64,000 bases of DNA, from the IMG/VR virus record IMGVR_UViG_3300037104_000592, positions 18,377-82,376 of that record. The stretch is one strand, 5' to 3'. Each line of letters opens with the position of its first letter. Positions within the stretch are counted from its first letter, which is position 1. Below are positions 15,306-37,100 of the stretch, in pieces. The stretch is from a virus. The translations under genes and the position numbers were made by a program. Below the pieces are notes generated by a model, which saw only the letters and a list, made by a program, of their open reading frames with translations, made no database searches and was not told the origin of the DNA.

Positions 15306-17820
15306 TTTAATCCCAAAACTTTATAGGGAATATGGATTATATGTAAATGAGTCTAGAGCATTTCCATTATCACAAGATGGATTAAAACCTGTTGAAAGAA
15401 GAATATTATTATCAGCATATCAAGTTGCAAAAGATAAATTTGTAAAATCTGTAAGAGTTGATGCACATTGTTTGGTTGGAAAAACAAAAATTAAAATAAC
15501 AAATGGAATAAAAACAATTGAAGAATTATATAAAGAAAATTATAGAAATTTCTATATTTTTGGATATGATTTAAAATTAAATAAACCCATTATTACCAAA
15601 GCAGATTGTGTTAGTCTGACAAAATTTGTTAATAAAATAATAAGAATTACAACGGAGAGTGGTATAATTGAGTGCACAGAAGATCATTTATGGTTAACAA
15701 AAGAAGGAGAATATAAAGAAACTAAAGAATTGATAATAGATGATTCTTTGGAAGTTATGGAATTTGGAATTCCAGATAAAAACAATATATTTAAAAATAA
15801 TTGGGTTGGCTGTTATCCATATGAAGTTGTTGAAAACAATGGAAATTTTTATAAAAGTCATTTTTTAGCAGATGAATATAATTGTAAAAATAATTTAGAA
15901 ATATTATTTGAATTAATTGATGGTTTTGATAGACATCATAAAGATAAAAATATATTAAATAATGACCCAGATAATATAACAAGAATGATTGTAGGAGATC
16001 ATTTAAAATTACATTATAATTTTTGGTTTAATTATAAAAATGGAAAAATATTTTTATCTGAAAACGGAAAAAGAATTCAAAGAGAACATCCAGAAATAGC
16101 TAAAGCTCTTGTAGAATTTACTAAACAAAAAAGTATAGATGATCCCACATGGCTGAGCAATAATGGAAAAAAATGTTGGAATAATCTTAACGAAGAAGAT
16201 CGTAAAAAACTTTCAAGAAAAATAGGAGATGGAATAAGAAAGTTTTATAGAGAAAATGGATCAGAAGAAAAAAGTAAAAAAACAATTGAGTACTGGAAAC
16301 AAGATTCAGAGTTAGTTAAAATTCATAGAGAAAAAAACAGATCAGCTGGGGTAATAACATCAAAAAAGAATTTTGAAAATAACCATAAAATTAAAATATT
16401 AAAAACTCTAAAAAAAATTATTGATAAAAATTTAGATCTGAATGAAGAAACATATAACTCTAATAGAGAAAAACTTTATCCACTGTATAATAAAATTTTG
16501 AAATATTTTAATTCATATGAAGAAGCAAATGAAGAAGCAAAAAAATATACAAATCATACTATACTAAATATAGAAGAAATTAATTTAGAAACTCCAATTC
16601 CAGTGTATGACATAATAAACTCAGAAAATTACCACAATTTTGTTGTTATGTTTGATGATAATACTGGAGTAATTTCCCATAATTGCTTGGGGCATTTTCA
16701 TCCTCATTCTACCGTATATCAATCAATTGTTCAATTAGTTCATCAAGGATTTTTAGATGGTCAAGGAAATTTTGGAAACAATATTGGACTAGAACCGAGT
16801 CCAGCGGCTGCTATGCGGTATACTGAATGTAAACTTTCTAAATTTATTAATAATATAGCTTTTAGATTAATTGATTATGTTCCTTGGGGTGAGTCAGAGT
16901 TAGATGATGAACCAGAATATATTCCATCAATGTTTCCTTTGTGTCTTTTAGGAAAAGAATATACGGTTGGAATTGGATTTGGATATAAAACTTTAATTCC
17001 TTGTTATACTCCTGAAGATCTTAAAAGTAGATTGTTTTATTTATTAGGAAAAACAAAAGAAAAACCTATAATTAAACCAATCACAGATTGTAAGATTTTA
17101 TCAACTGATAAGGATTTTGAAGAATTATTAACAACTGGAAAAGCTGTTATTTCATTTCAAGGAATTCATAAAATTGATAATGTTAAAAGTAAAGCTGTAA
17201 TAAAAAATTGGCCACCTGGAAAACGATTTGAATCTATTTTATCAAAGTTTGATAAAGAATTAACAAATCAAGATATTGGATTTATTGATGAATCATCAAA
17301 AGACAATGGTGGAACTCATATAGTTTTTGAAGTTTTAAAATCTAGAAATAAGAATGATATTTTTAGAACATTTTCTAAAAAGTTAGGGGATGTTTTAAAA
17401 GGTTCTATTTCTTTTGAAATGATTGTAGTTGATTCTGAATCAAGAACTCCAAAATTGATGTCCGTTGATGAGATGTTGCTTAAAACTTATAATATGTATA
17501 AAGCAACAAATGAGATAATGTTAAAGTCTGAAGAAAAAAGATTTAAAGATTTAATAAATGAAAATAAATTGATTCAAAAGATAAAACCATCTTTGTCTAA
17601 ACAATTACAATCAAAAGAAACTGATGTTGATAAAATAATTGATGCAATAAGTGCAGATACATTTATTGATAGAAATGTGGTTAAAGATATTATTCAAAAA
17701 CATAGAATTTCTAAGTTGTTATCTGTTAAAAATGATTTGAAAGAACTAGAAATAAGAATAGTAGATATAGTTGATTGTATAAAGAATATAGATAAGTTTG
17801 TTTTGAAACAATATACTTAA
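15298..17820 (+). CDS. type II DNA topoisomerase subunit A (GyrA/ParC/gp52-like) containing an intein
   Basis: RAFP..DGLKPVERR, HPHS, GQGNFG, catalytic AAMRYTE; spliced product about 435 aa with no beta-pinwheel CTD. Confidence 0.93.
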   Translation: MDNLIPKLYREYGLYVNESRAFPLSQDGLKPVERRILLSAYQVAKDKFVKSVRVDAHCLVGKTKIKITNGIKTIEELYKENYRNFYIFGYDLKLNKPIITKADCVSLTKFVNKIIRITTESGIIECTEDHLWLTKEGEYKETKELIIDDSLEVMEFGIPDKNNIFKNNWVGCYPYEVVENNGNFYKSHFLADEYNCKNNLEILFELIDGFDRHHKDKNILNNDPDNITRMIVGDHLKLHYNFWFNYKNGKIFLSENGKRIQREHPEIAKALVEFTKQKSIDDPTWLSNNGKKCWNNLNEEDRKKLSRKIGDGIRKFYRENGSEEKSKKTIEYWKQDSELVKIHREKNRSAGVITSKKNFENNHKIKILKTLKKIIDKNLDLNEETYNSNREKLYPLYNKILKYFNSYEEANEEAKKYTNHTILNIEEINLETPIPVYDIINSENYHNFVVMFDDNTGVISHNCLGHFHPHSTVYQSIVQLVHQGFLDGQGNFGNNIGLEPSPAAAMRYTECKLSKFINNIAFRLIDYVPWGESELDDEPEYIPSMFPLCLLGKEYTVGIGFGYKTLIPCYTPEDLKSRLFYLLGKTKEKPIIKPITDCKILSTDKDFEELLTTGKAVISFQGIHKIDNVKSKAVIKNWPPGKRFESILSKFDKELTNQDIGFIDESSKDNGGTHIVFEVLKSRNKNDIFRTFSKKLGDVLKGSISFEMIVVDSESRTPKLMSVDEMLLKTYNMYKATNEIMLKSEEKRFKDLINENKLIQKIKPSLSKQLQSKETDVDKIIDAISADTFIDRNVVKDIIQKHRISKLLSVKNDLKELEIRIVDIVDCIKNIDKFVLKQYT
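15469..16683 (+). mobile_element. intein (405 aa) with HNH homing endonuclease
   Basis: Starts CLVGKTKI, block B CTEDHLW, block F VYDI...HNF, ends ISHN followed by extein Cys; internal DRHHKDKNILNNDPDN...H..LH. Confidence 0.93.
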
Positions 17821-24119: not shown

Positions 24120-24383
24120 ATGGACGAGAATGAAAGAAATCCTATTAATGTAAATGTTCTTTTTACTGATATACTTACTCTCTTATTAAATTTAGATAAT
24201 GGTGTAAATTTATCAATTTGTAAAAATATAGTTTCATGTGTTATGCATAATTTAACACCAGAAGATTTCAGTGAAGAAGTAAAATTACATTTTTATGGAA
24301 CTGCATATGGGGGTGATCTTAAAGTAGATTATCCAAAAGAATATGATAAATTATGTAAATTATTTGGGTGTCTTGCACTATGA
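24120..24383 (+). CDS. hypothetical protein
   Basis: GGAGGA RBS; lies between Mre11 and Rad50. Confidence 0.6.
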   Translation: MDENERNPINVNVLFTDILTLLLNLDNGVNLSICKNIVSCVMHNLTPEDFSEEVKLHFYGTAYGGDLKVDYPKEYDKLCKLFGCLAL

Positions 24384-26569
24384 GAACTGTAAACTTCAGA
24401 AAAGTAGTGATGGAAAATTTCTGTTGCTATAAGAATAGATTAGAATATGAGTTTAAGAATGATACAATAGTTTTAGTAACAGGTCCTAATGGTGTTGGAA
24501 AATCTACAATCTTTTCTGCTGTTCCTTATACTTTATATGGCGTTAGTCCTACAGGACTCAAGGGTGAAGATGTCGTAAATAATGAAGTAGGAAAAAATTG
24601 TTATACAGCATTAGAGTTTGATATTGATGAAGATAAATATCTTTGCGAAAGATATGTTAAAAACTCTAAATTAGGAAATACAGCAACTTTAAAAAAGAAT
24701 ACTGTTTTAATTAAAAAAGGTCATACAGAAGTTATTGCAGAAATTGAAAGAATTTTAATCCCCCAGAAACTATTCTTAAATACTCTTCTATTTGGTCAGA
24801 AAGTTAAAACATTCTTTACAGATCTTAATGACACAGATCAAAAAGATATTTTTAGAAAAGTTCTCCAACTTGATGATTATATTCTTTATTATGATGAATC
24901 TTCTGATAAATTGAAATCATTCAAAAAAGAATTAGATAAAACTAAAGCTGAGATTAATTTAACAGTTGGTTTAATTGAAGGAGTCAAAAATCAAATATCT
25001 CAACTAAAAGAATCTCAAACTAGATTTAAAGTATCTAAAAATACTGAAATAAAAAAATTAAAAGATGAAAAATTAGAAATAGAATCTCAAATAGATGAAA
25101 ACAATAAAATTCTGCTAGAGTTTGGAGATGAAGATTTAAACTCTAAATCTAAAGAGTTAAATGAAAACTATTTTCTATTAAAAAATTCAATTGATATTAT
25201 AAATAATGATCTTAAAAATTCTTTAAGTCAAGCATTATCTAAAAAAAATGAAAAAGAAAATGAAATCAAAAATGAATATTCTTTAAGAAATTCTGAATTA
25301 ACTTCAATAAAAGATTCTAATATTCACAAAGAATTTTCTGATTGTCAAGAAAAATTAAAAGATATAAAAATAGAGTTATCAAAAATAGAAACTAGTCTTG
25401 ATAATGTAAGAGAAGATCATAGATTAAAAACAATAGATTATGGGATGACTCTTGAAAAAATAAAAAAACTTCAAGATAATTTAAATTCTGACTTAGTAAT
25501 ATGTCCATTATGTAAACAAGAAATAGGAAAAGAAAATATTTCTCATTTACAAAAAGAATTAGAAGCAACCGAGCAATCTGCAACTTTTGTAAAAAATGCA
25601 ATTGATAAATTGAAAGAAAAAGGTATTGAGTTAAGAGATAAAATAACTATAATGAAGGAAGAAGTAAACGAGATTTCAAATACAAGTTCTTCAAAAACTA
25701 AAGAAATAGAAAAAGAATTCACAATCAATAGTAAAGAGAATAAAGATAAATATCTAGCAGTATTATCTAAAATAGATACAATATATAAAAATATGGTTTC
25801 TTCTATTGATGAAGAAGCAAAAAATAAATCAAAAGAAGTTAAAGATAAAATATCTAAAGTCGAATCTGAAAGAGATAATATTTTAAAAAAGATAACCGAA
25901 AAACAATTTTTTATAGAAGTTATCATATCCTTAAAGAACCAAGTTATTTATACAGAAAATTTGATAAAAAGTAAATCATCTGAAAAATTTGATGATTCTG
26001 TTTTGAAGAAATCAGAAGAAAAGTATATTGAGTTACAAGATAATTTATTTGATTTAGAAGGAGATGAAAGTGATCAAGAAGATCTAATTGAAATATATGA
26101 TTTTTGGAAAACTGGATATTCAATGTCTGGTATTCCTTCAATGCTTATAGATGAAGCAATTCCATTTATGAACGAAAAAATTGGATTTTATTTAGATCAA
26201 ATTGGTGGAAGATATATTGTCTCATTTGATACTCTAAATCAAAATAAAAGTGGAGATTTTAAAGATAAAATTTCTGTAAATGTTTATGATACAGTTACAA
26301 AAGCAAATACAAGAAAACAGTTCTCGGGTGGTCAAACCAGAATTGTTGATATCGCAACCATTTTAACTTTAAGAGATTTACAAAGTAATATTCAAGATAT
26401 GAGAACTAATATTATTATTCTTGATGAAATATTTGACTCTTTAGATTCAAAAAATATTGAATATGTATCAACTGTTTTAAGAAAAATGACGAAAGGAAAT
26501 TCAATAAATATCATTAGTCATACTCAAATTGATCAATTAGATGTTGATGATACATTGAGATTTCTATAG
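24380..26569 (+). CDS. Rad50/SbcC/gp46-like ABC ATPase
   Basis: GPNGVGKS, Q-loop FGQ, coiled coil with CPLC zinc hook, FSGGQ signature, ILDEIFDSLD, IISH. Confidence 0.93.
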   Translation: MRTVNFRKVVMENFCCYKNRLEYEFKNDTIVLVTGPNGVGKSTIFSAVPYTLYGVSPTGLKGEDVVNNEVGKNCYTALEFDIDEDKYLCERYVKNSKLGNTATLKKNTVLIKKGHTEVIAEIERILIPQKLFLNTLLFGQKVKTFFTDLNDTDQKDIFRKVLQLDDYILYYDESSDKLKSFKKELDKTKAEINLTVGLIEGVKNQISQLKESQTRFKVSKNTEIKKLKDEKLEIESQIDENNKILLEFGDEDLNSKSKELNENYFLLKNSIDIINNDLKNSLSQALSKKNEKENEIKNEYSLRNSELTSIKDSNIHKEFSDCQEKLKDIKIELSKIETSLDNVREDHRLKTIDYGMTLEKIKKLQDNLNSDLVICPLCKQEIGKENISHLQKELEATEQSATFVKNAIDKLKEKGIELRDKITIMKEEVNEISNTSSSKTKEIEKEFTINSKENKDKYLAVLSKIDTIYKNMVSSIDEEAKNKSKEVKDKISKVESERDNILKKITEKQFFIEVIISLKNQVIYTENLIKSKSSEKFDDSVLKKSEEKYIELQDNLFDLEGDESDQEDLIEIYDFWKTGYSMSGIPSMLIDEAIPFMNEKIGFYLDQIGGRYIVSFDTLNQNKSGDFKDKISVNVYDTVTKANTRKQFSGGQTRIVDIATILTLRDLQSNIQDMRTNIIILDEIFDSLDSKNIEYVSTVLRKMTKGNSINIISHTQIDQLDVDDTLRFL

Positions 26570-27528: not shown

Positions 27529-27867
27529 ATGGGATATGTAAGAAGATCAGAAAGAATTAAACATTTGAAACAGTATAAAGATATTAGATTAATTTTTAAG
27601 AATTTATTTGATACTCCAAATTTTACAGATAATATTGTATATGGCGCAAGCTTTAAATGGTATTTTAATTCATTTTTAAGAAACAAATGGGGAAATGAAA
27701 AAAAAATAAAAGATAATGTTAAAAATTTTCTAGAAAATAATTTGCGAGGTATAGGGTTTATTTTTGAAGTTAAATTATTACCTCATCCTTGGGCATCAAG
27801 ATCAGGAATGTCTCCTAGTTTTAGAATTTTGACGAGGTTATATAATGGACCAAATTCAAATAGTTAG
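27529..27867 (+). CDS. hypothetical protein
   Basis: 112-aa ORF. Confidence 0.5.
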   Translation: MGYVRRSERIKHLKQYKDIRLIFKNLFDTPNFTDNIVYGASFKWYFNSFLRNKWGNEKKIKDNVKNFLENNLRGIGFIFEVKLLPHPWASRSGMSPSFRILTRLYNGPNSNS

Positions 27868-28870
27868 TTGGCTTCTTACACGAAGATGTAATCTTAGATG
27901 TTCATATTGTAGAATATCTAGAGATTATAAAGCACCTCCAGAATATAATTCAATGAAATATTTTCATCAATTAGAAATGAAAACGGAAGATATTTTAGAA
28001 ACATTAAGAAGATTAAAGCTTCATAATCCTAATGTTTTCCATATCTTTTACGGAGGAGAACCAACCCTTAGAACAGACTTATCAGAAATAATAGGATATT
28101 GTCATAAGGAATATATTAATTATACCATCATTTCAAATATGACTGATAGACCCAAAGAAGTAATTGATAACTTAATTAAAGAACACGGATTCCTTCAAGG
28201 ATTAACAGCGAGTATAGACCCTATTATCATGGAAGAATATTCAAATGAGGATAGATGGAGAAAAACTTGGGGAGGATATAGCTTAAGAAAATATAGAGGA
28301 AAAGTAAAGGATTTAGTTGCTGAGATAACTGTAAGTAATGATAATCTAAAGAATTTATATTCATTAGTTAGAAAATTAACAGATGATGGAATAAATTCTG
28401 ATATTACTTTTGTTGATATAGCTAAATCTCCATATTATGATTTCTCTAATGTTACAGATGATGATTTATTAGTTTATAAATCAGCCGAATTAAGAGATAT
28501 TATAAATAGAATAATTGGTGAAAAATTAGATGTTCATATGAGAGATATTCTTTTACCTGCTATTTATGATATTCTTCCTTCTGAATTAGATTGTAAGATT
28601 GAAGATGATGTTCATAATATAACAATTGATGCAGATGGAAGTATTCGATTATGTTTAAGAATTTGCGGAATTATAACTCCTGGATCTTTTAGGACTTCAA
28701 ACTTTTTAGATGAAAATGGAAAAATTCATGAAAGTTTAAAAGATGTATTAGGTCAAGATAAAAAAAGACTATGTCAAAAATGTAATTGGACCTGCCAGAT
28801 TATGAGTTCTTTATTATCAAAAAATGATGGAAATATTGAAAGTCTTCTTCATTCTGAAAGGAGATTATAA
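27845..28870 (+). CDS. radical SAM protein with C-terminal Cys cluster (SPASM/twitch-like)
   Basis: RCNLRCSYC, GGEP, IDADG..RLC, CQKCNWTC. Confidence 0.85.
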   Translation: MDQIQIVSWLLTRRCNLRCSYCRISRDYKAPPEYNSMKYFHQLEMKTEDILETLRRLKLHNPNVFHIFYGGEPTLRTDLSEIIGYCHKEYINYTIISNMTDRPKEVIDNLIKEHGFLQGLTASIDPIIMEEYSNEDRWRKTWGGYSLRKYRGKVKDLVAEITVSNDNLKNLYSLVRKLTDDGINSDITFVDIAKSPYYDFSNVTDDDLLVYKSAELRDIINRIIGEKLDVHMRDILLPAIYDILPSELDCKIEDDVHNITIDADGSIRLCLRICGIITPGSFRTSNFLDENGKIHESLKDVLGQDKKRLCQKCNWTCQIMSSLLSKNDGNIESLLHSERRL

Positions 28871-29617: not shown

Positions 29618-29992
29618 ATGACAATGTTAGAAGAAATTCTAGAAAAAACAAAAACTTTACCCACTGATGATCAATTAAAACAAATTTGTGATCAAATACA
29701 AAAAGAAGAAGAAGAAAAATTTAGAGATTATTTAGGAGAGATGCCAAAAGGACCCAATATGTTTCTAGCAATTTGGGTTCCTGGAATTACAGGAAAAGAA
29801 TTATGTTATGTATGTTTAGAAAGAGAATTTCCTGGTAAATATTTAGTAACTCTTTGGTCTAAATTATCCGAAAAAAGTATAATAAAAAAGAAATCATTAA
29901 TAAGAACAAAAGTTTGGGAAGTTAAAGAAAGCGCTCCAAAAAAGATTTTAGAAGAATATGCTAAAATACTTAAGTTCATGAGAGGAAAATAA
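29618..29992 (+). CDS. hypothetical protein
   Basis: TAATG overlap with E2-like gene. Confidence 0.65.
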   Translation: MTMLEEILEKTKTLPTDDQLKQICDQIQKEEEEKFRDYLGEMPKGPNMFLAIWVPGITGKELCYVCLEREFPGKYLVTLWSKLSEKSIIKKKSLIRTKVWEVKESAPKKILEEYAKILKFMRGK

Positions 29993-32616
29993 TGGCCGAG
30001 CAAATATCACCTATATTTATTGATGAAAATACAATTAAAGAAATATTTATAAATAGAGATTATACAAGACTCATAAGATCTTCTTATGATTCTAAAGCTA
30101 GAGATGTAAAATTGGATGAAACTAAACCAAAACTTGTAACATCTAAGATGAGAACAATAGATTTTTTTAATAAATTAAATAGTACAGATAGTAAACTAAC
30201 AATTCTTCCTAGAAATTGTAGATTTACTAATAAAATAACTGATAGAACAATATACGTAATTGAAGATCCTCCTATGTTAAGAACAGTTAAATTTAATATA
30301 GGATTAGAATCTGAAATTGAAAATTTAAGGAATAATGGTTTACTTACAAAGTTTGGATATGAAAATTTTCTAAATGATAATCCAAGTCCACCTTATAAAA
30401 TACAACTTTCATTCCCGTATGTTATTTATATTATAACTTTTGGGCAACATAATGAATTTTCAAATATGAAGTTATTTTATAGATTGCATCCTTTAACTGG
30501 AATAAAAGATTATTTACTCACAAGTAATTTATTGAATGTAGATTCTAACGGTTCTGTATGTTTAGGTCCACAAAATTCAAAAGATGTTACAGAAGTAAGT
30601 GATAAAGTAGATAATATTATAAATTCTTTTTGGGGAAATGAGTTTAATAATGATATTACACATTCATATTTATCATATTCTAATCAAAGAGAAATTTCTA
30701 CAATTCTAGCGTGGAAATATTATTCGAAAGTTGATCCAATGTTTATATTTGATGTGGAGTGGATAAAAAATACATATAATTTAGACTCATTTTTAAATTT
30801 TAAAAATTCTGGTGATGATATAAGAAGTTGTGAAAATATAATGTATAAACTTGAAGAGTATATTTTATATGATAAAGAAGATGAAGGACAAAAAGTTGTT
30901 GATAGAAGATATACTTATACCAGTCTTCCATTATTTGAAGATGAACAAAAGGGTTCTGACTATCTTGTAATTGGAGATGAAATTATATTTGAAGGGAAAA
31001 AATATTTTATATATGAAATAGTTCATGAATCAGATGGAAAAATTATTGTTTCATTGGAAGACGAGAATGGAAAGTTAATTTATAAAAAATATAATACAGA
31101 TTTTAGAGACAAAATAAGAAAAGAAACTTTGAAAAATAAAGAGCTTACAGAAATTAAAATTGATGGTCTTACTGTAAAAAAAGGAACCGTTTTAGAAGCA
31201 TTTGATGGTTATAAAAAGAGATTAAAACATGTACAAAAAATAAGAAAGACCAGAGATGGAAAAATAGAAATACAATGTGAAAAAAGTTTCTACATGATTG
31301 AAGATGGGAGTTTAGCTGGAGTAAAAGTTTTTGATATTAATAATTTAACTATTTCTAATGGTTTAAAAATTGTTAATGGAAATAAGTACATGATTTTTAA
31401 TAATATAACTAATCCTATATTTGATATTCAAACTGGAATTTTTACAGATTTAAAAGTAACTAACGACACTGTCTACTATAATTTTAAATATGTCAGACCT
31501 GCTGATAAAAAAGAATCTACAATTAATTATAGTGGAGATACTCAAACAACTGAAGTTTTTGATTATGATGAAAAACTTTTAAATAATTCCATGTTTCCTT
31601 TCTTTAGACTTGGAAAAATGATCATATCAAATATTGATAAAGATTATAAATTTCATATAATTAAAGGAAAAGGTATTGGGGTTACATCTTCTTCGGGTAA
31701 TGTAATTGATAGATATGATTTTGGGAGATATTTAAATTCTGATAAAGATATAAAGGAGAAAATTTTAAAAGATAATAAATTAAGAATTCCATCATTTGAT
31801 TTGGATATAGAATTTGATATTGGTGATAGAGTAGTTATAGCTGATTATTCTAAATCTTTAAAATATATTACTACAATAAGAACTATAACTGGATTTAAAA
31901 TTGCAGGGGATAATCTTTTTGTAGATACTGTAGATGAAAATAATATACCAGAAAGTACTCCTTATATAAATTTTAAAATTTATGATAAAAGTTATATTTA
32001 TTCAAAATCTCCTAAAGTTAATATTGGGTTAATTAGAAAAATAATAGATAATGATTTATTCAAAAGAGGAACTAAAGTAAGACCTAAGGTAAAAGGAATT
32101 TCATCATTTAAGAAAAAAGATGTTCATGAAATAGTTGGACTAATTACAGATACTGGGTCTAAACCTATTATTCTATGTTCAAATGGTCATACAATTTGGT
32201 GTGATGAAAAATCACTTGAAAATTTTGAACTTATAGATAAGAAATCTAAATTATATAATAAATCAAAATTAACAGAAATATTAGAAAATGAAAAAATATA
32301 TTGTAAATTTCAATCTGGAGATTTAGCTGATATTAAAGATGTATATGATAGAACTTCATATGAAGATTCAATTCATCTTTGCGGTATAGGAGCAAATAAT
32401 AGAATAATATTTAAAATTTTAAATTCTTTAAATGTATATGGTTCATATAATAGATCTGGAAGAAGAATTATAAGTCAACAATATCAAACTATTCCTATGC
32501 CAAGATATTTACCAACAACTGAATTAATAAGAGGGATTGGAGTTATTCCTAATTATCATGGTTGGTTTACTATTTCAAATAATTCGCTGTTTAAAATACA
32601 ATTGGAGAAAATATAA
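29992..32616 (+). CDS. prokaryotic E2-like (Prok-E2 D / PRTRC-B type) domain protein with long beta-rich C-terminal extension
   Basis: LSFPYVIY...LFY...L....LLNVDSNGSVCLG...INSFW..EFNND (Cys about residue 190); first gene of E2-JAB-E1-Ubl operon. Confidence 0.75.
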   Translation: MAEQISPIFIDENTIKEIFINRDYTRLIRSSYDSKARDVKLDETKPKLVTSKMRTIDFFNKLNSTDSKLTILPRNCRFTNKITDRTIYVIEDPPMLRTVKFNIGLESEIENLRNNGLLTKFGYENFLNDNPSPPYKIQLSFPYVIYIITFGQHNEFSNMKLFYRLHPLTGIKDYLLTSNLLNVDSNGSVCLGPQNSKDVTEVSDKVDNIINSFWGNEFNNDITHSYLSYSNQREISTILAWKYYSKVDPMFIFDVEWIKNTYNLDSFLNFKNSGDDIRSCENIMYKLEEYILYDKEDEGQKVVDRRYTYTSLPLFEDEQKGSDYLVIGDEIIFEGKKYFIYEIVHESDGKIIVSLEDENGKLIYKKYNTDFRDKIRKETLKNKELTEIKIDGLTVKKGTVLEAFDGYKKRLKHVQKIRKTRDGKIEIQCEKSFYMIEDGSLAGVKVFDINNLTISNGLKIVNGNKYMIFNNITNPIFDIQTGIFTDLKVTNDTVYYNFKYVRPADKKESTINYSGDTQTTEVFDYDEKLLNNSMFPFFRLGKMIISNIDKDYKFHIIKGKGIGVTSSSGNVIDRYDFGRYLNSDKDIKEKILKDNKLRIPSFDLDIEFDIGDRVVIADYSKSLKYITTIRTITGFKIAGDNLFVDTVDENNIPESTPYINFKIYDKSYIYSKSPKVNIGLIRKIIDNDLFKRGTKVRPKVKGISSFKKKDVHEIVGLITDTGSKPIILCSNGHTIWCDEKSLENFELIDKKSKLYNKSKLTEILENEKIYCKFQSGDLADIKDVYDRTSYEDSIHLCGIGANNRIIFKILNSLNVYGSYNRSGRRIISQQYQTIPMPRYLPTTELIRGIGVIPNYHGWFTISNNSLFKIQLEKI

Positions 32617-33644
32617 TGTTTAAAATAGTTTGTTTAGATGGAACACAAAAAATACCAGAAGATGATATTTGTTATATTATAGCTAAGGGTGGGGTATATC
32701 TTAAGAAAAAAGTTGGAATGATTGAATCTTTAGCTCCAGTAAAGAATATTTCAATTTTAGAAGATGTTCAACCATATGCTAAAATGAATATTCCAAAAAT
32801 CTCTGGTGAAGATTTTGGAAAAGTTATGAGTTTTTTCAAAAAAGTTTATGAAGAACATAAATCTGAAGCAATAGTTCTTTTATATTATAATCCAAAAAAA
32901 GCAACTTATAAATTTTATGTTCCACATCAAAAAGTAAGTGGTGCTGGAGTTGATTATGTAAAAGGAGTTTCTATAGCAAATCATATTCAAGTAGGAACTA
33001 TTCATAGTCATGCTAATTTTTCAGCATTTCATTCTGGAACAGATGATAGTGATGAAGAACATTTTGATGGAATTCATATAACAATTGGTGATAACACCGA
33101 TGCTTTTCCATCTATCACTGCATCAATTGTTATAAATGGAACCAGATTTACAATAAATCCTATTGATTATGTAACAAAAATGGAAATTGTAGAATATACT
33201 AATTATTTTCCTCATATGTTCAGACCATCTTTCACAGAAATAAATGGAGTCAGAGAATATAAATCTAATGTAAAAACTCAACTTGGATATCAGCTAATGA
33301 TTTCAGACCAAGATAAAAAATTTAATGAAGCATGGTTAAAAATGATTGAGAATGTTAGACCTACTATAACTAATATCCCATTTTATACACAAGAACACTA
33401 TTTGGATTTATTTGATCCTAATAGAAAAGATAAGCAAGACAGATCTTATAGATACACATGGACTCCAGGTTCTACTAAAAAGAATAATCGTCCTGCTTAT
33501 AATCCTTGTGAAAGTTGTGTTTTTAAAAAATATAAATCAGACGATGAAAGAAAATCAATAACACAAGAGGACATACAACAAAGTTTCTCTGATATTTGGG
33601 ATGATTATAATGTGTATGATGATCCTTGGGGAAATTTAATATGA
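32616..33644 (+). CDS. JAB/JAMM metallopeptidase (deubiquitinase-like)
   Basis: SEA (catalytic Glu), GTIHSHANFSAFHSGTDDSDE = HxH-x7-S-x2-D, GIHITIG. Confidence 0.9.
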   Translation: MFKIVCLDGTQKIPEDDICYIIAKGGVYLKKKVGMIESLAPVKNISILEDVQPYAKMNIPKISGEDFGKVMSFFKKVYEEHKSEAIVLLYYNPKKATYKFYVPHQKVSGAGVDYVKGVSIANHIQVGTIHSHANFSAFHSGTDDSDEEHFDGIHITIGDNTDAFPSITASIVINGTRFTINPIDYVTKMEIVEYTNYFPHMFRPSFTEINGVREYKSNVKTQLGYQLMISDQDKKFNEAWLKMIENVRPTITNIPFYTQEHYLDLFDPNRKDKQDRSYRYTWTPGSTKKNNRPAYNPCESCVFKKYKSDDERKSITQEDIQQSFSDIWDDYNVYDDPWGNLI

Positions 33645-34345
33645 GATTTAATGATATTTCTATAGTGGGTTTGGGTGGAATAGGCTCAATTTTAAGTAAT
33701 ACTATTTCAAGATTTATAAGTAACGATGCTAGAGAAAATGATCCAAGACAAATTATAAATTTAATTGATGGAGATTATTATGAAGAAAAAAACTTAGTTA
33801 GACAAGAATTTTTAAGATTTGGAAATAAAGCAGAATCTAAATTAAATGAATTAAGACCAAAATTTAATAATATTGAATTTAAAGATTATCCATATTTTAT
33901 AGATGATATAACTATTTCTAGAATAATTAAAGATAAAGATTTAGTATTTTTAGCAGTTGATAATCATAAAACAAGAAAATTAGTAAGTGATTATGCAAAA
34001 AAACTAAATGATATAATTATAATTTCAGGAGGAAATGAGCTAGAAGATGGTAATGTTCAATTGTATATTAGAAAAGATGGAGAAGATGTTACTCCATCTT
34101 TAACTGATTATCATCCAGAAATCAGAAACCCAATTGATAAATTACCAAATGAAATGAGCTGCGAAGAGTTACAAAACTCTGAACCACAACTATATTTTAC
34201 AAATTTAGGAGTGGCAACTTTTATGGCTTTTGCATTTTACAATGTCCTAAAAGGCTCAAATAATTTTTCAGAAGTATATTTTGATATGAACACAATGAAA
34301 GCTGATTCAAAAACAAGAAACTTAAAAAAAGAAAAAGGAGAGTAA
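33641..34345 (+). CDS. E1 / ThiF-family ubiquitin-like activating enzyme
   Basis: VGLGGIGS, IDGD..E.KNLVRQ, NKA, AVDN..TR, SGGN, candidate catalytic Cys in MSCEE. Confidence 0.9.
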   Translation: MRFNDISIVGLGGIGSILSNTISRFISNDARENDPRQIINLIDGDYYEEKNLVRQEFLRFGNKAESKLNELRPKFNNIEFKDYPYFIDDITISRIIKDKDLVFLAVDNHKTRKLVSDYAKKLNDIIIISGGNELEDGNVQLYIRKDGEDVTPSLTDYHPEIRNPIDKLPNEMSCEELQNSEPQLYFTNLGVATFMAFAFYNVLKGSNNFSEVYFDMNTMKADSKTRNLKKEKGE

Positions 34346-34354
34346 GGATTTATT

Positions 34355-34828
34355 ATGGCTAAAAAAGTATATTCGGCAGAGGAACTTTATAACAAAACAG
34401 TATCAGAACTTCGTGAAATGTGTGTTAAGTTTGGGATTACGGGTATGAGTAAAAGGAGAAAAGATGAGATTGTAGATGCTCTTTGTGATTATTATGAAGA
34501 TACAGCACCTGAACCCCAAGTTAAAACACCAGTTTCTTCTTCATCTATCGTTTCTATGAATGCTCAACTTTCGAGTTATAGAAACCCCGATTCAAAAAAT
34601 GATGACGATAAATACATCACCAATATTTTTGTGTCTTGCGGCGCAGCTTCTGGAAACTTCCCAGTTGTTGGAAAGAAAGTTGGAGCAGTTGCTGAATTCC
34701 TAAGAGAAGTTCTTAATATCGACCGTTTAAGTGTTGGAGTTGTGAATGGTGAAGAAGTTGAAGATAGTTATCTTCTTGCATCTGGAGATTCTCTTGAATT
34801 TCTAAAAGCAGGTGGTCGTAAAGGTTAA
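34355..34828 (+). CDS. ubiquitin-like (beta-grasp) protein with N-terminal Rho-N/HEH domain
   Basis: N-term L..KTVSELREMC..FGITGMSK.RKDEIVDAL; C-term VVNGEEVEDSYLLASGDSLEFLKAGGRKG ending in Gly. Confidence 0.8.
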   Translation: MAKKVYSAEELYNKTVSELREMCVKFGITGMSKRRKDEIVDALCDYYEDTAPEPQVKTPVSSSSIVSMNAQLSSYRNPDSKNDDDKYITNIFVSCGAASGNFPVVGKKVGAVAEFLREVLNIDRLSVGVVNGEEVEDSYLLASGDSLEFLKAGGRKG

Positions 34829-34873: not shown

Positions 34874-35392
34874 ATGAAAGAAACACTAGATAAGCTTACA
34901 GATGAAGGTGTAAAGCAACTAAAATATTATTATAAGAAAACAAGGCTCTTTGGAAATATTTGCACTGTTTGTTTACTTATTGGAGAAAATAATGAACTTA
35001 TTTCAAGAGGAGTTTCTATTTGTTCATTATTAGATTCTCATAAAAAATCAACAGGAAAAAATATTGCTTTAGGAAGAGCAATAAAAGCTCTAAAAAATAA
35101 GAAAACAACAGATGAAATAAATCCAAATAGAGATTCTTTAACACATTGGATGTATACTAAAAATATAAATAAAAAAGATCCTTATTTTAGCGATATGTTT
35201 GAAGAAATTAAATATAATTGCTTTTCTACAAAACCTTTAAAAATTAATAAAGAAGAAGTTTTAAAAGTTGAAATACCAATGGATTTTCCATTGTATGCAA
35301 CTGTATCATTATTTACACATAAATCTTCATTTAAACCAACTCCTACGGATGAAGAAGTTAAAATAATTGAAAAAAGAAAAAAGTTAGATTAA
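34874..35392 (+). CDS. phage protein with Gp49-like (T.C..G.S.CS..D....G..IA..RA) motif
   Basis: CTVCLL...SRGVSICSLLDSHKKSTGKNIALGRA. Confidence 0.5.
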   Translation: MKETLDKLTDEGVKQLKYYYKKTRLFGNICTVCLLIGENNELISRGVSICSLLDSHKKSTGKNIALGRAIKALKNKKTTDEINPNRDSLTHWMYTKNINKKDPYFSDMFEEIKYNCFSTKPLKINKEEVLKVEIPMDFPLYATVSLFTHKSSFKPTPTDEEVKIIEKRKKLD

Positions 35393-35401
35393 ATTTTTAG
35401 A

Positions 35402-35569
35402 AAAATTGGGGTGGATAATCATACTGAATAAGTGGTTTTGAAACCTGGTACTAAGAAAGAGTGCGAACTCTGGGGCAGGAACCCAGATAGAAGCTTTAGA
35501 TGGCTCGATAGCTGACTGATAGATATTGCACCCAAAGTGCCTTATCCAGTATTATTCCACCCCAATTTT
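35402..35569 (+). ncRNA. candidate structured ncRNA (about 170 nt, multibranch)
   Basis: About 30-bp closing helix (aaaattggggtggataatcatactgaataag / cttatccagtattattccaccccaatttt) enclosing hairpins, including gagt-GCGA-actc; GC-rich relative to genome. Confidence 0.6.
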
Positions 35570-35581
35570 AGGAGATTAAAA

Positions 35582-35824
35582 ATGGGTAGTTATAATCAAG
35601 ATAAAGATGTTTTAATAAAAATGTTTGAAATGATTACAGATGAAAAGGGTTCTTCTCTAATGTTGTCTATTTTTTCATACGACAATGGACCGAAAAAATT
35701 AGCAATGACAAGATCATATAATAAAAAAGATGGATCTGTTGGATATTCTTCAGCAGGTAGATTAAGTCTTATGGAAGTTAATTTTCTAAAAGATAAATTA
35801 GATGAAATAATTAAAGAGATGTAA
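35582..35824 (+). CDS. PC4/YdbC-like ssDNA-binding / transcription cofactor
   Basis: AGGAGA RBS; L.LSIFSYDNGPKKL...R.Y.KKDG....GRLS..E...L pattern. Confidence 0.6.
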   Translation: MGSYNQDKDVLIKMFEMITDEKGSSLMLSIFSYDNGPKKLAMTRSYNKKDGSVGYSSAGRLSLMEVNFLKDKLDEIIKEM

Positions 35825-35880: not shown

Positions 35881-36756
35881 GTGTATAAAGATATAGCGAT
35901 TATAGGTTTAGGAAGTATAGGAGGTTTTTTATCGAGCAATATCATAAACATAGACACAATAAAATCTTTGGTTTTAGTTGATTATGATAGAGTAGAACTG
36001 GAAAATTTGAAAAATTCAATTTATAAAAAATCAGATGTTGGGAAATTTAAAGTTGAATGTGTATCTTCCGTTATAAAATTGTTCAATAGTGAAATAAATA
36101 TTACAGCAATAAAAGATAGATATATAGAGGGAAAAACAAAAATTCCAAAATGCGATTTAGTTATTGATTGTAGAGATTTTGTTTATGATAGAGGTTCAGA
36201 AATAAATATGAGATTATATATCTCTTCTAGACATTTAATAATTGATTGTAGAAAAGATATAAAATATCAATTACACTATGAAGGAAAATATATAGATACA
36301 TTAACAAAATCTGATATTTATTCTGCTACAGCTAATTTGTCAAGATTGATATTTAATGAAGAATTAAATGATATAATTAAAAACAATTTAGTTCATACAA
36401 TAGATATGGATGAATGCTTAAAATCAAGTGAAGAAACTTTAAATAACTATAATAATAAAATGGAAGTTGTTATGGATTATCATAAAAAGAATGATTGTTT
36501 CATAAATTTTCTTGAAAATGCAGAAAATATAATAAATTTCAATAAAAAAAGTGAAGTGAAAATTTGTCTAAACGATAAAAGATTTCCATTATCTACTAAA
36601 ATAATACCAAAAAATTATATTCAAAATGTAAATGACTTAAGTAAAAATTTTTTATCAATAATACCAGCTAAAAATCATAGTAGTTATATAGTTAAATCAA
36701 TTATAGAAAAAAATATTTGTTATGTAATTTTAATACCAGAAACAGGGGCTGCTTAA
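35881..36756 (+). CDS. second, divergent ThiF/E1-like protein
   Basis: IIGLGSIG, VDYDRVE.ENL, VGKFKV, IDCRD; lacks the RQ of NLxRQ. Confidence 0.75.
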   Translation: MYKDIAIIGLGSIGGFLSSNIINIDTIKSLVLVDYDRVELENLKNSIYKKSDVGKFKVECVSSVIKLFNSEINITAIKDRYIEGKTKIPKCDLVIDCRDFVYDRGSEINMRLYISSRHLIIDCRKDIKYQLHYEGKYIDTLTKSDIYSATANLSRLIFNEELNDIIKNNLVHTIDMDECLKSSEETLNNYNNKMEVVMDYHKKNDCFINFLENAENIINFNKKSEVKICLNDKRFPLSTKIIPKNYIQNVNDLSKNFLSIIPAKNHSSYIVKSIIEKNICYVILIPETGAA

Positions 36757-36758
36757 AA

Positions 36759-37100
36759 ATGAGCATAAAAACTATTACTATTGAGAAAAAAATAACACCA
36801 AGAATTGCTATTTATAAACGAGATGCCTTTGATATTTTAGAGGTTGATCCAGAATTCATGATAAATAAATATGAGATAACTTTAAAAGAATCAAAAGTAG
36901 TTTCTTTAAAATTATTTGCTTTACATCCAAATTGTAATCCAGATACTGGAGAATTTTGTTTAGGTCCTGACATAATTGAAAATCAAGCAAATGAATATCT
37001 TTTAGAAAAAGTTATTCCTTATACACTATCAGTATATAATTTAGATAGTTGTTATTTCAGGCCAAAAAATGGAAAAGTAAAATATGGAATAATGAAATGA
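36759..37100 (+). CDS. small E2/UBC-like conjugating enzyme
   Basis: FALHPNCNPDTGEFCLG matches E2 HPN-x5/6-G-x-(I)C-L; downstream L..YNLDS. Confidence 0.7.
   Translation: MSIKTITIEKKITPRIAIYKRDAFDILEVDPEFMINKYEITLKESKVVSLKLFALHPNCNPDTGEFCLGPDIIENQANEYLLEKVIPYTLSVYNLDSCYFRPKNGKVKYGIMK

What the first reader, a model, noticed from the sequence alone, without database searches (positions are those of the whole stretch)
34355..34828. Ubiquitin-like tag fused to a Rho-N/HEH nucleic-acid-binding-type domain
Seen: an N-terminal about 45-aa helix-extended-helix (KTVSELREMC..FGITGMSK.RKDEIVDAL), a Pro/Ser-rich linker, then a C-terminal Ubl with a free terminal Gly and an internal GG three residues earlier (GG|RKG). 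Inference: conjugation would attach a DNA/RNA-binding or oligomerising handle to targets, for example to tether them to phage DNA or transcription complexes. The JAB might process the tail after GG or act only as a deconjugase.
Basis: partly seen in the sequence, partly recalled or inferred. Interest (0 to 1): 0.8.

Follow-up and report, generated by a model that had tools for sequence, protein, structure and literature searches.

The report
Jumbo-phage ubiquitin-like tag with HEH handle
A giant phage from peat soils encodes a small ubiquitin-like protein carrying an extra Rho-type helix-extended-helix domain, next to its own E2, JAB peptidase and E1 genes, so the phage most likely tags proteins in a ubiquitin-like way, which has not been described for phages in the papers I could search.

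Summary
ORF 34355-34828 (157 aa) has a Rho_N/HEH domain (Pfam above threshold; Rho N-terminus Z 7.7, rmsd 1.2 A), a variable disordered linker, and a beta-grasp ending in a free Gly.

One detail is wrong. The internal GG is not conserved. The conserved end is G-x-K-G. About two thirds of relatives stop exactly there. Others carry a cap (often one Cys) or are head-to-tail poly-Ubl precursors. Gly157 is therefore the reactive end.

The gene is the last of a coupled E2(874 aa)-JAB-E1-Ubl cassette with conserved catalytic residues. The cassette is syntenic in about 80 IMG/VR contigs of one jumbo-phage clade (63 of 65 RNAP-anchored loci) and is absent as a block in two.

Bacterial relatives (CPR, Chloroflexia) have the same four genes but no HEH and a short E2. 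The HEH, and a roughly 600-aa KOW/SH3-like barrel array on the E2, are phage additions.

Best reading: a phage-encoded Ubl conjugation system whose tag carries a nucleic-acid- or protein-docking handle. Conjugation, targets and HEH activity remain untested. Bacterial Bil/Bub Ubls with other N-terminal domains are published, so this is a new variant of a known kind.

The scan noted the same architecture in another genome (e1-5952169).

The parts
34355..34828 (+). HEH-Ubl gene (157 aa), the finding itself
   Evidence: ORF. Family of 347 representatives. AF2 model.
34376..34504 (+). Rho_N / helix-extended-helix domain, residues 8-50
   Evidence: Pfam Rho_N above its gathering score. Rho N-terminus Z 7.7, rmsd 1.2 A over 47 residues. 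Mean pairwise identity 0.45 in 69 phage homologues.
34505..34552 (+). Pro/Ser-rich flexible linker, residues 51-66
   Evidence: pLDDT below 50 for residues 52-63. Identity 0.16. The segment between the HEH end and the Ubl core, which includes this linker, varies from 1 to 61 residues in length.
34553..34825 (+). Beta-grasp Ubl domain, residues 67-157 (core 87-157 preceded by an extra strand at 69-76)
   Evidence: Fold matches to MoaD, ThiS, TGS and ubiquitin. hhalign to an 83-aa bacterial Ubl gives probability 99, E 7e-18 over residues 86-157.
34814..34825 (+). C-terminal tail G154-R-K156-G157, followed directly by the stop codon; the predicted site of adenylation and conjugation
   Evidence: G154, K156 and G157 are invariant. 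91 of 136 motif-bearing relatives end exactly at KG, and 23 have KG plus one residue, mostly Cys. Poly-Ubl repeats join directly after KG.
33626..34345 (+). E1a, ThiF-type adenylating enzyme (239 aa); the predicted activator of the Ubl
   Evidence: Pfam ThiF E 5.9e-18. Closest NCBIfam model is PRTRC_ThiF, below its cut-off. GxGGxG, R59/Q60, D112 and C179 are conserved at >=90% in 67 sequences.
32616..33644 (+). JAB/JAMM metallopeptidase (342 aa); the predicted cap-removing and deconjugating enzyme
   Evidence: Prok-JAB E 4e-4. PRTRC_A E 2.3e-8, below its cut-off. E84, H130, H132, S140 and D143 are conserved at >=90% in 67 sequences.
29992..32616 (+). E2big (874 aa): a Prok-E2_D-type E2 core (about residues 53-273, Cys190) plus about 600 aa of small beta-barrels
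   Evidence: hhalign to a bacterial Prok-E2_D protein gives probability 99.1, E 4e-19. C190 is invariant. AF2 pLDDT 80.7. Foldseek top hits are Spt5 KOW arrays (E 9e-8), with UBE2O near E 1e-3.
35881..37100 (+). Second, separable E1b (291 aa) plus small E2b (HPN-x8-C) module; context, and not dependent on this Ubl
   Evidence: ThiF E 3.3e-17. H70-P71-N72 and C81 are conserved in 58 sequences. The module is kept in L161, which lacks the E2big-JAB-E1a-Ubl block.

Best explanation
ORF 34355-34828 encodes the modifier of a phage-encoded ubiquitin-like conjugation cassette. It has two independent domains on a flexible linker: an N-terminal Rho_N-type helix-extended-helix and a C-terminal beta-grasp whose last residue, Gly157, is the reactive end.

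Inferred mechanism. E1a adenylates Gly157 and takes it onto Cys179. The Ubl then passes to Cys190 of the 874-aa E2. The KOW/SH3-like barrel array of that E2 acts as a built-in substrate adaptor, and the Ubl ends up on target lysines. The JAB peptidase reverses this. In relatives that carry a C-terminal cap or tandem Ubl repeats, the JAB also exposes the Gly.

The HEH is a phage-specific addition. It gives every conjugate an extra binding surface, most likely for RNA/DNA or for a partner in the transcription or replication machinery.

Shown here: the folds, family-wide conservation, cassette linkage and co-loss, catalytic-residue conservation, and homology to bacterial Prok-E2_D/JAB/ThiF/Ubl cassettes. 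Inferred: every chemical step, the targets, and what the HEH binds.

My odds: architecture 0.95; covalently conjugated tag 0.65; HEH binds nucleic acid 0.35.
For: - Folds and domains.
Eight relatives are head-to-tail poly-Ubls; in nearly every copy the unit ends in E-F-V-K-x-x-G-x-K-G, and several carry a short final cap. This is the layout of polyubiquitin precursors (own knowledge).
- Coupling: E2big and JAB overlap at ATGA, JAB and E1a overlap by 19 nt, and the E1a-Ubl gap is 9 nt.
- Synteny: the order rSAM ... E2big-JAB-E1a-Ubl ... E1b-E2b-RNAP beta'-beta holds in 80 IMG/VR loci.
- Near-core status and co-loss: 63 of 65 RNAP-anchored loci have the Ubl, and the two exceptions lack the whole four-gene block.
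- Catalytic residues: E1a GxGGxG/R59/D112/C179, E2 C190 and JAB E84/HxH/S/D are >=90% conserved in 64-67 homologues.
- Bacterial relatives: the same four genes occur in a Moraniibacteriota MAG and in Chloroflexia MAGs, with an 83-116 aa Ubl lacking the HEH and a 239-263 aa E2.
- Published precedent: the JAB DUB of Type II Bil trims residues after a conserved Gly, and Bil/Bub Ubls carry diverse N-terminal domains (10.1101/2023.09.26.559546; 10.1101/2024.11.21.623966).
- HEH under selection: identity 0.45 against 0.16 for the linker. A 40-aa Rho-N motif binds ssRNA in RHON1 (PMC3458557).
- Weak hint of expression: contigs >=99% identical from RNA libraries of three peat studies lie inside the ORF.
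Against: - No biochemical evidence exists for adenylation, thioester formation or conjugates in this family or in the related PRTRC cassettes.
- The Ubl domain reaches no curated Pfam or NCBIfam family. Its structural scores are modest (Z about 5-6), and TGS domains, which bind RNA, score as well as Ubls.
- The HEH is net acidic. In Rho itself RNA is held mainly by the adjoining OB fold (own knowledge).
- Two E1s and two E2s are present, so the pairing of this Ubl with E1a and E2big rests on adjacency and co-loss only.
- DNA carry-over in the RNA libraries cannot be excluded.
Confidence: 0.6

Rival explanations
1. The HEH is not a nucleic-acid handle. It is a docking or oligomerising element for proteins, for example recruiting the Ubl to its own E1/E2/JAB, to the phage RNA polymerase, or to itself. 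The conjugation chemistry is as in the best explanation.
For: The domain is net acidic. The same fold serves as a protein-binding module in LEM-BAF, SLX4-MUS81 and a phage baseplate (structural neighbours). Published bacterial Ubls use N-terminal coiled coils or filament-forming domains for self-association. 19 stored relatives have two HEH copies in tandem.
Against: The conserved basic stretch in the loop and second helix (S32, K33, K36) is the part that HeH/SAP domains use for nucleic acids (own knowledge). RHON1 Rho-N binds RNA on its own. No complex prediction could be run.
Confidence: 0.25
2. The cassette is counter-defence. The phage system interferes with host Ubl-based immunity (Bil-like tagging of virion proteins), for example by the JAB stripping host Ubl, or it tags and inactivates host defence or transcription proteins. 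The HEH-Ubl acts as the effector tag or as a decoy.
For: Bacterial Ubl systems act against phages. E2big evolves much faster than its neighbours: 24-31% identity against 55-61% for RNAP beta' in the same loci. That pattern fits a host-facing specificity factor. The cassette is dispensable in two clade members.
Against: Near-universal presence (63 of 65) and fixed position among replication and transcription genes look more like a core function than an accessory anti-defence gene. No PADLOC Bil model matches the Ubl, E2 or JAB.
Confidence: 0.15
3. The beta-grasp is a ThiS/MoaD-type sulfur carrier. E1a forms a C-terminal thiocarboxylate used to thiolate a cofactor, tRNA or phage DNA. The HEH brings the carrier to the nucleic acid.
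For: The best structural neighbours include MoaD, ThiS and TtuB. E1a scores with ThiF/MoeB models. A radical-SAM gene lies upstream in 63 loci.
Against: The end is K-G, not G-G. No rhodanese, cysteine desulfurase or sulfurtransferase was found among the nine neighbouring proteins scanned. An E2 with an invariant Cys and a JAB are always linked. The rSAM stays when the cassette is absent (L161). Poly-Ubl precursors fit a conjugated tag better.
Confidence: 0.07
4. The protein is a non-covalent RNA-binding adaptor (HEH plus a TGS-like beta-grasp). It is never conjugated, and the neighbouring E1/E2/JAB act on something else, such as the C-terminus of E1b.
For: A TGS domain is the top Foldseek hit. 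Sub-threshold Pfam TGS hits occur in relatives. E1b ends in a conserved T-G-x-A.
Against: The invariant Gly sits exactly at the C-terminus, and there are cap and poly-Ubl variants. The Ubl is co-lost with E2big-JAB-E1a while E1b-E2b persist. The minimal bacterial cassettes have the Ubl as their only small partner.
Confidence: 0.06

Closest known systems
Bacterial Prok-E2_D / Prok-JAB / ThiF / Ubl cassettes (Iyer, Burroughs and Aravind 2006, PMC1779556), distantly related to the PRTRC system (TIGR03735-03738)
   Same: Same four genes, in the same order in the CPR example (L084). The E2 core, JAB, E1 and Ubl core are homologous: hhalign probability 99 for the E2 and the Ubl. The JAB and E1 best match PRTRC_A and PRTRC_ThiF. 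The Ubl ends in the same G-x-K-G.
   Different: The bacterial Ubls are 83-116 aa with no HEH, and the E2s are 239-263 aa with no barrel array. The phage proteins fall below all PRTRC curated cut-offs, and the Ubl matches no PRTRC_C or Prok_Ub model. These bacterial cassettes have no known function.
Type II BilABCD (bacterial ISG15-like) antiphage ubiquitination (Chambers et al., 10.1101/2023.09.26.559546) and the Ubl diversity survey (Gong et al., 10.1101/2024.11.21.623966)
   Same: Separate E1, E2, JAB DUB and Ubl. There is a universally conserved Gly followed by up to nine variable residues that the JAB removes. [quoted passage not shown]
   Different: Bil is host-encoded defence; this cassette is phage-encoded. 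The Bil E1 has an extra N-terminal inactive adenylation domain (Pfam Prok-E2_C), whereas E1a is a 239-aa minimal ThiF. No PADLOC Bil model hits the Ubl, E2 or JAB. The reported N-terminal domains are disordered N/G-rich, coiled-coil or DUF1508, not Rho_N/HEH.
UBE2O, the eukaryotic E2/E3 hybrid
   Same: An E2 fused to several small SH3-like barrels that select substrates. UBE2O structures appear among the Foldseek hits of the E2big model (E about 1e-3).
   Different: The similarity is at fold level only, with 9-12% identity and high rmsd. Spt5 KOW arrays score better (E 9e-8). The E2 core here is the prokaryotic family D type.
SDE2 (eukaryotic replication-stress protein with a Ubl and a SAP domain)
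   Same: One polypeptide combines a ubiquitin-like domain with an HeH/SAP-type module that binds DNA (PMC9399289, listed).
   Different: The domain order is reversed, and the N-terminal Ubl is cleaved off rather than conjugated (own knowledge). There is no sequence relationship.
Lambda/T1 tail assembly proteins I (Ubl) and K (JAB-NlpC/P60)
   Same: A phage-encoded beta-grasp with a conserved Gly, linked to a JAB peptidase (PMC1779556).
   Different: No E1 or E2, a tail-assembly context, and the Ubl is followed by another domain. Here a full E1/E2 set sits among transcription and replication genes.

Membership tests
Rho_N (PF07498) / HeH-SAP-LEM fold | Sequence match to the Pfam model above its gathering score | tested here: met
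   29.6 bits against a cut-off of 24.9, residues 10-43.
Rho_N (PF07498) / HeH-SAP-LEM fold | Two helices joined by an extended loop that superpose on the Rho N-terminus | tested here: met
   rmsd 0.8-1.2 A over 43-47 residues, Z 7.7, the top hit of 48,161 chains.
Rho_N (PF07498) / HeH-SAP-LEM fold | Nucleic-acid binding | not testable with these tools
   Precedent only: the RHON1 Rho-N motif binds ssRNA. This domain is net acidic.
Conjugated prokaryotic Ubl of an E1-E2-JAB cassette | Beta-grasp fold | tested here: met
   AF2 topology. Matches to MoaD, ThiS, SAMP1 and ubiquitin at Z 4.5-5.7.
Conjugated prokaryotic Ubl of an E1-E2-JAB cassette | Conserved Gly at the mature C-terminus, optionally followed by a removable cap | tested here: met
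   G157 is invariant. 91 of 136 motif-bearing relatives end at it. Caps and poly-Ubl junctions lie directly after it.
Conjugated prokaryotic Ubl of an E1-E2-JAB cassette | Obligate linkage to an E1 with adenylation motifs and a Cys, an E2 with a Cys, and a JAB with a JAMM site | tested here: met
   Synteny in 80 loci, co-loss as a block, and catalytic residues >=90% conserved.
Conjugated prokaryotic Ubl of an E1-E2-JAB cassette | Isopeptide conjugates formed in an ATP-, E1- and E2-dependent way | not testable with these tools
   Needs biochemistry.
PRTRC system (TIGR03735-03738) | Proteins reach the curated NCBIfam cut-offs | tested here: not met
   E1a scores 39 bits against 144.75, and the JAB 33.9 against 101.8. 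The Ubl and E2big have no hit. This is a distant relative, not a member.
BilABCD (Type I/II) | Match to Bil models; E1 with an N-terminal inactive adenylation domain | tested here: not met
   No PADLOC Bil hit for the Ubl, E2 or JAB, and only E 0.035 BilD for E1b. E1a is 239 aa, a single ThiF domain.
Bub (bacterial ubiquitination-like) operons | Oxyester (Ser) intermediates, peptidase-E1 fusion, Ser-His protease (PMC11601596) | tested here: not met
   Conserved Cys in E1a (C179) and E2 (C190), and a separate JAMM metallopeptidase. Bub features taken.
ThiS/MoaD sulfur carriers | C-terminal Gly-Gly and a partner sulfurtransferase; Pfam ThiS match | tested here: not met
   The end is K-G, and GG precedes it in only 2 of 69 phage loci. 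No ThiS hit for the window protein, only sub-threshold hits in a few relatives. No sulfurtransferase among the neighbours scanned.
TGS domain | Pfam TGS match; occurrence in RelA/SpoT, ThrRS or Obg-type proteins | tested here: inconclusive
   TGS structures are among the best fold hits, and sub-threshold Pfam TGS hits occur in three relatives. The domain context is entirely different.

The most novel reading that the evidence does not exclude
A widespread clade of jumbo phages runs its own ubiquitin-like conjugation pathway as a near-core function. Its tag is bifunctional. The beta-grasp is ligated to targets chosen by the KOW/SH3-like array of a giant E2. The HEH then tethers the tagged proteins to RNA/DNA or to the transcription machinery. 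Tagging would thus relocalise host or phage factors during takeover, a viral analogue of SUMO/PIAS-type chromatin targeting in a prokaryotic setting.
Probability: 0.3. Interest if true: 0.85.

Novelty: new variant of a known kind. Interest (0 to 1): 0.66.

Why it matters
Ubiquitin-like conjugation in prokaryotes has so far been shown as host defence against phages (CBASS Cap2, Bil) or in operons whose context suggests it (Bub). Here the phage side carries a complete E2-JAB-E1-Ubl set, kept in nearly all members of a jumbo-phage clade found in many metagenomes.

If it conjugates, it would be the first phage-run ubiquitin-like pathway that I can find in the held literature. It would also give function-testable parts for the uncharacterised Prok-E2_D/PRTRC-like cassettes of bacteria.

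The HEH-tagged Ubl and the E2 with a built-in barrel array show how a minimal cassette gains targeting modules. Head-to-tail poly-Ubl precursors with a one-residue cap mirror eukaryotic polyubiquitin genes. This bears on how ubiquitin-system features arose.

Tried and rejected
- Scans for the four-repeat poly-Ubl P0114 found nothing in viral contigs. In metagenome contigs they found only a 1.3-kb fragment and a spurious NusA-region hit. The gene context of the poly-Ubls is therefore unknown.
- Alignments A2 and A3 of HEH-less Ubls were too variable for a pattern scan.
- The INPHARED phage collection has no DNA or protein match to the cassette or the Ubl. The closest RNAP beta' there is only 27-30% identical.
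- PHROGs matches cover only the HEH, for example the C-terminus of endonuclease VII.
- PADLOC gives no hit for the Ubl, JAB or E2.
- The promoter/terminator scan of 27.5-37.6 kb was no better than shuffles and showed no + strand terminator after the Ubl.
- A quick tree of the 72-residue Ubl core gave 11 changes between HEH and no-HEH labels, and the careful search did not finish. Several proteins labelled no-HEH have degenerate HEH-like N-termini that my HMM missed (alignment). I draw no conclusion about how often the fusion arose.
- Literature searches for a phage-encoded E1/E2/Ubl system found none in the held library. That is not proof of absence.
- The reading that the JAB cuts after the internal GG is rejected on conservation.
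Full report
**The observation**

The ORF is real. It runs from ATG 34355 to the TAA stop at 34826-34828 and encodes 157 aa. It starts 9 nt after the stop of a ThiF-type gene.

Pfam places Rho_N (PF07498) on residues 10-43 at E 6.7e-7, with 29.6 bits against a gathering score of 24.9.

I built an AlphaFold2 model from a 37-sequence alignment (mean pLDDT 77). It gives:
- helices at 8-12, 16-25 and 36-50;
- a disordered stretch at 52-63;
- a beta/alpha unit with strands 69-76 and 87-94, helix 109-120, and strands 127-130 and 147-150.

The N-domain superposes on the N-terminus of E. coli Rho at rmsd 0.8-0.9 A over 43-45 residues (Foldseek). In an exhaustive search of 48,161 chains it was the top hit, at Z 7.7 and rmsd 1.2 A over 47 residues. 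The next hits are other HeH modules: YqbF, the C-terminus of T4 endonuclease VII, and SAP and LEM domains.

The C-domain matches MoaD (Z 5.7, 2.9 A over 60 residues), ThiS, TtuB, SAMP1, TGS, Fubi, ISG15 and ubiquitin. These scores are modest, as always for a 70-residue domain, but they all point to the beta-grasp fold. So the described architecture is confirmed: HEH, Pro/Ser-rich linker, then a Ubl with a free terminal Gly.

**The family and its C-terminus**

The word-indexed search found 42 full-length relatives. The exhaustive search found 347 cluster representatives at E<=1e-3.

Of 136 stored relatives that carry the motif:
- 91 stop exactly after K-G;
- 23 have one extra residue, mostly Cys;
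- the rest have tails of 2 to 152 residues.

Eight relatives are head-to-tail tandems of two, three or four Ubl units. In nearly every copy the unit ends in ...G-x-K-G and runs directly into the next, and several carry a short final cap (C, MLIE, VVRIG or VQRINIIV). This is the layout of eukaryotic polyubiquitin precursors, which also end in a one-residue cap (own knowledge).

It follows that the mature reactive end is Gly157. A peptidase cuts directly after K-G where anything follows it. The suggested cut after the internal GG is not supported.

**Domain make-up across the family**

Among 186 stored proteins:
- 127 have one HEH plus one Ubl;
- 19 have two HEH copies plus one Ubl;
- the rest are Ubl-only or poly-Ubl.

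Some proteins counted as Ubl-only have degenerate HEH-like N-termini (alignment).

In the phage homologues, mean pairwise identity is 0.45 for the HEH, 0.16 for the linker and 0.66 for the Ubl core. The segment between the HEH and the Ubl core varies from 1 to 61 residues in length. The HEH is therefore under selection, and the linker behaves as a spacer.

**Genomic setting**

The window lies in an 82-kb IMG/VR virus record that CheckV rates 26% complete, which implies a genome near 300 kb. The window also holds a second RNAP beta gene, gyrase B and A, a helicase and an SbcC-like ATPase.

Upstream of the Ubl lie three coupled genes:
- an 874-aa protein with a weak Prok-E2_D match;
- a JAB peptidase;
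- E1a.

The first two overlap at ATGA, and the JAB and E1a overlap by 19 nt.

Downstream come two small ORFs, a second ThiF-like gene (E1b), a small protein with a eukaryote-style HPN-x8-C motif (E2b), and then RNAP beta' and beta.

A scan of IMG/VR with the Ubl alignment gave 80 loci on contigs of up to 277 kb. All show the same order: rSAM, o112, o124, E2big, JAB, E1a, Ubl, (o172), (o95), E1b, E2b, RNAP beta', RNAP beta.

I then anchored the search on RNAP beta' instead. Of 65 loci with enough upstream sequence, 63 have the Ubl. L161 lacks o124-E2big-JAB-E1a-Ubl as one block but keeps E1b-E2b. L169 lacks both modules. The four genes therefore behave as one unit, separable from E1b-E2b.

**Enzymes of the cassette**

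In 64-67 phage homologues the following are at least 90% conserved:
- E1a: G15-x-G17-G18-x-G20, R59/Q60, D112 and C179;
- JAB: E84, H130, H132, S140 and D143;
- E2big: C190.

NCBIfam places the JAB nearest to PRTRC_A and E1a nearest to PRTRC_ThiF, both well below the curated cut-offs.

E2big is the fastest-evolving member. It is 24-31% identical to the window copy, against 55-61% for RNAP beta' in the same loci.

Its AlphaFold2 model (46 sequences, pLDDT 80.7) has an alpha/beta core up to about residue 270, followed by roughly 570 residues of small beta-barrels. The best Foldseek matches are the KOW arrays of Spt5 in Pol II elongation complexes (E 9e-8). Tudor/Agenet arrays and the E2/E3 hybrid UBE2O follow near E 1e-3. 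This is fold-level resemblance only. It does fit the view that the extension is a built-in substrate adaptor. A second conserved Cys, C729, sits in this region.

**Cellular relatives**

A scan of one genome per prokaryotic species found the Ubl family in only a few MAGs.

- In a Moraniibacteriota contig the order is E2 (239 aa), JAB, E1, Ubl (83 aa, ending K-G).
- In Chloroflexia contigs of more than 500 kb the order is Ubl (116 aa, K-G plus QQA), E2 (263 aa), JAB, E1. This sits beside a TraD/VirD4-like ATPase.

The Chloroflexia E2 passes the Pfam Prok-E2_D threshold (31.3 bits against 25), and both JABs pass Prok-JAB.

Profile comparison links the phage E2big core (residues 53-273) to that E2 at probability 99.1, E 4e-19. 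It links the phage Ubl core (86-157) to the CPR Ubl at probability 99, E 7e-18.

The phage cassette is thus a homologue of the bacterial Prok-E2_D/JAB/ThiF/Ubl cassettes first described by Iyer, Burroughs and Aravind (PMC1779556). The HEH on the Ubl and the barrel array on the E2 are additions specific to the phage lineage.

**How it most likely works**

By analogy with the biochemically solved Type II Bil pathway, I infer the following steps. In Bil, a JAB DUB trims residues after a universally conserved Gly, and E1 and E2 then conjugate the Ubl to lysines (10.1101/2023.09.26.559546).
1. E1a adenylates Gly157 and forms a thioester on C179.
2. The Ubl moves to C190 of E2big.
3. The barrel array of E2big selects targets.
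4. The JAB removes caps where they exist and reverses conjugation.

None of these steps is shown.

The window's Ubl needs no maturation, because it stops at Gly157.

What the HEH does is open. An isolated 40-aa Rho-N motif binds ssRNA in Arabidopsis RHON1 (PMC3458557), and SAP and LEM relatives bind DNA or proteins. This HEH keeps the basic S-K-x-x-K stretch but is net acidic overall.

Published bacterial Ubls already carry other N-terminal domains: disordered N/G-rich, coiled-coil and DUF1508. The authors proposed that such tags mislocalise or aggregate targets. So the concept has precedent. The Rho_N handle and the phage origin do not, as far as I could find.

**Rivals**

A sulfur-carrier role is unlikely, for four reasons:
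- the K-G end;
- the ever-present E2 and JAB;
- the lack of any sulfurtransferase nearby;
- the rSAM remains when the cassette is absent.

A purely non-covalent RNA-binding role (HEH plus a TGS-like domain) is contradicted by the terminal-Gly, cap and poly-Ubl pattern, and by co-loss with E1a, E2big and the JAB.

A counter-defence role is compatible with the chemistry. The fast evolution of E2big favours it, while the near-core status of the cassette argues somewhat against it.

**Occurrence and expression**

The stretch is held nearly word for word by peat and permafrost metagenomes of more than a dozen studies from 2018 to 2025.

Contigs from RNA libraries of four peat studies, all at least 99% identical, lie on the cassette. 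Three of them lie inside the Ubl ORF: 34477-34723, 34426-34723 and 34377-34527. DNA carry-over cannot be excluded, so this is only a hint of expression.

**Novelty**

This is a new variant of a known kind. The kind, prokaryotic E1-E2-JAB-Ubl cassettes, has been known since 2006, and related systems have been shown to conjugate. The new points are:
- a complete cassette as a near-core module of a jumbo-phage clade;
- a Ubl family with no curated model;
- the Rho_N/HEH fusion;
- a giant E2 with a KOW/SH3-like array;
- polyubiquitin-like precursors in the same family.

I found no paper describing this in the held library.

First-stage readers of this scan noted the same cassette on this genome and an HeH-Ubl on another genome. 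Those notes were unchecked.

Noticed in passing
window 35392-35574 (gap between ORFs 34874-35392 and 35537-35824): In RNA-library contigs of two different peat studies, one contig 'goes back' across this gap. The joins are 35574->35392 (183-nt unit, depth 13.6) and 35563->35401 (163-nt unit, depth 16.6), with only 1-2 shared letters at the joint. These are the highest depths on the 7.5-kb stretch. That suggests a circular or head-to-tail RNA. The region folds strongly (-60.1 kcal/mol, z -4.5, long closing stem) and matches no Rfam family. It is the same place as first-reader note e1-6106912.
   Followed up: partly
window 35881-37100: The second E1 (E1b) and the small E2b form a separable module. 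The E2b motif H-P-N-x8-C is >=90% conserved in 58 homologues, and E1b ends in a conserved T-G-x-A. The module persists in locus L161, which lacks the E2big-JAB-E1a-Ubl block. No second Ubl of this family exists in the window or in the 82-kb record, so its substrate is unknown.
   Followed up: partly
window 29992-32616: E2big has a second conserved Cys (C729, in a conserved L-C-S-N...T-x-W stretch) inside the C-terminal barrel array. It is the fastest-evolving gene of the block. C729 could be a second relay cysteine (E3-like) or structural.
   Followed up: no
proteins P0114, P0108, P0169, P0182, P0135, P0155, P0171, P0183 (metagenomic relatives): These are head-to-tail poly-Ubl precursors of two to four units. 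In nearly every copy the unit ends in G-x-K-G, and several carry a one- to eight-residue cap, like polyubiquitin genes. Their gene context could not be recovered.
   Followed up: partly
proteins P0132 (509 aa) and P0176 (594 aa): Two proteins each carry five tandem Rho_N/HEH repeats and no Ubl. This shows that the HEH module is used as a repeated unit in related metagenomic proteins.
   Followed up: no
window 32616-33644: The JAB protein has about 110 residues before the JAMM core and a conserved C298-x-x-C301 pair in its C-terminal extension. This may be half of a zinc site.
   Followed up: no
window 125-3157, 13509-17820, 24368-26569: A second RNAP beta-like gene, gyrase B and A homologues and an SbcC/Rad50-like ATPase lie in the same window. 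The phage therefore has at least two beta-type RNAP genes. The closest cultured-phage RNAP beta' is only 27-30% identical.
   Followed up: no
window 27845-28870: A radical-SAM/SPASM-type gene (best NCBIfam hit is a PapB-type peptide maturase, far below its cut-off) is conserved upstream in 63 loci. It stays when the Ubl cassette is absent. Its substrate is unknown.
   Followed up: no
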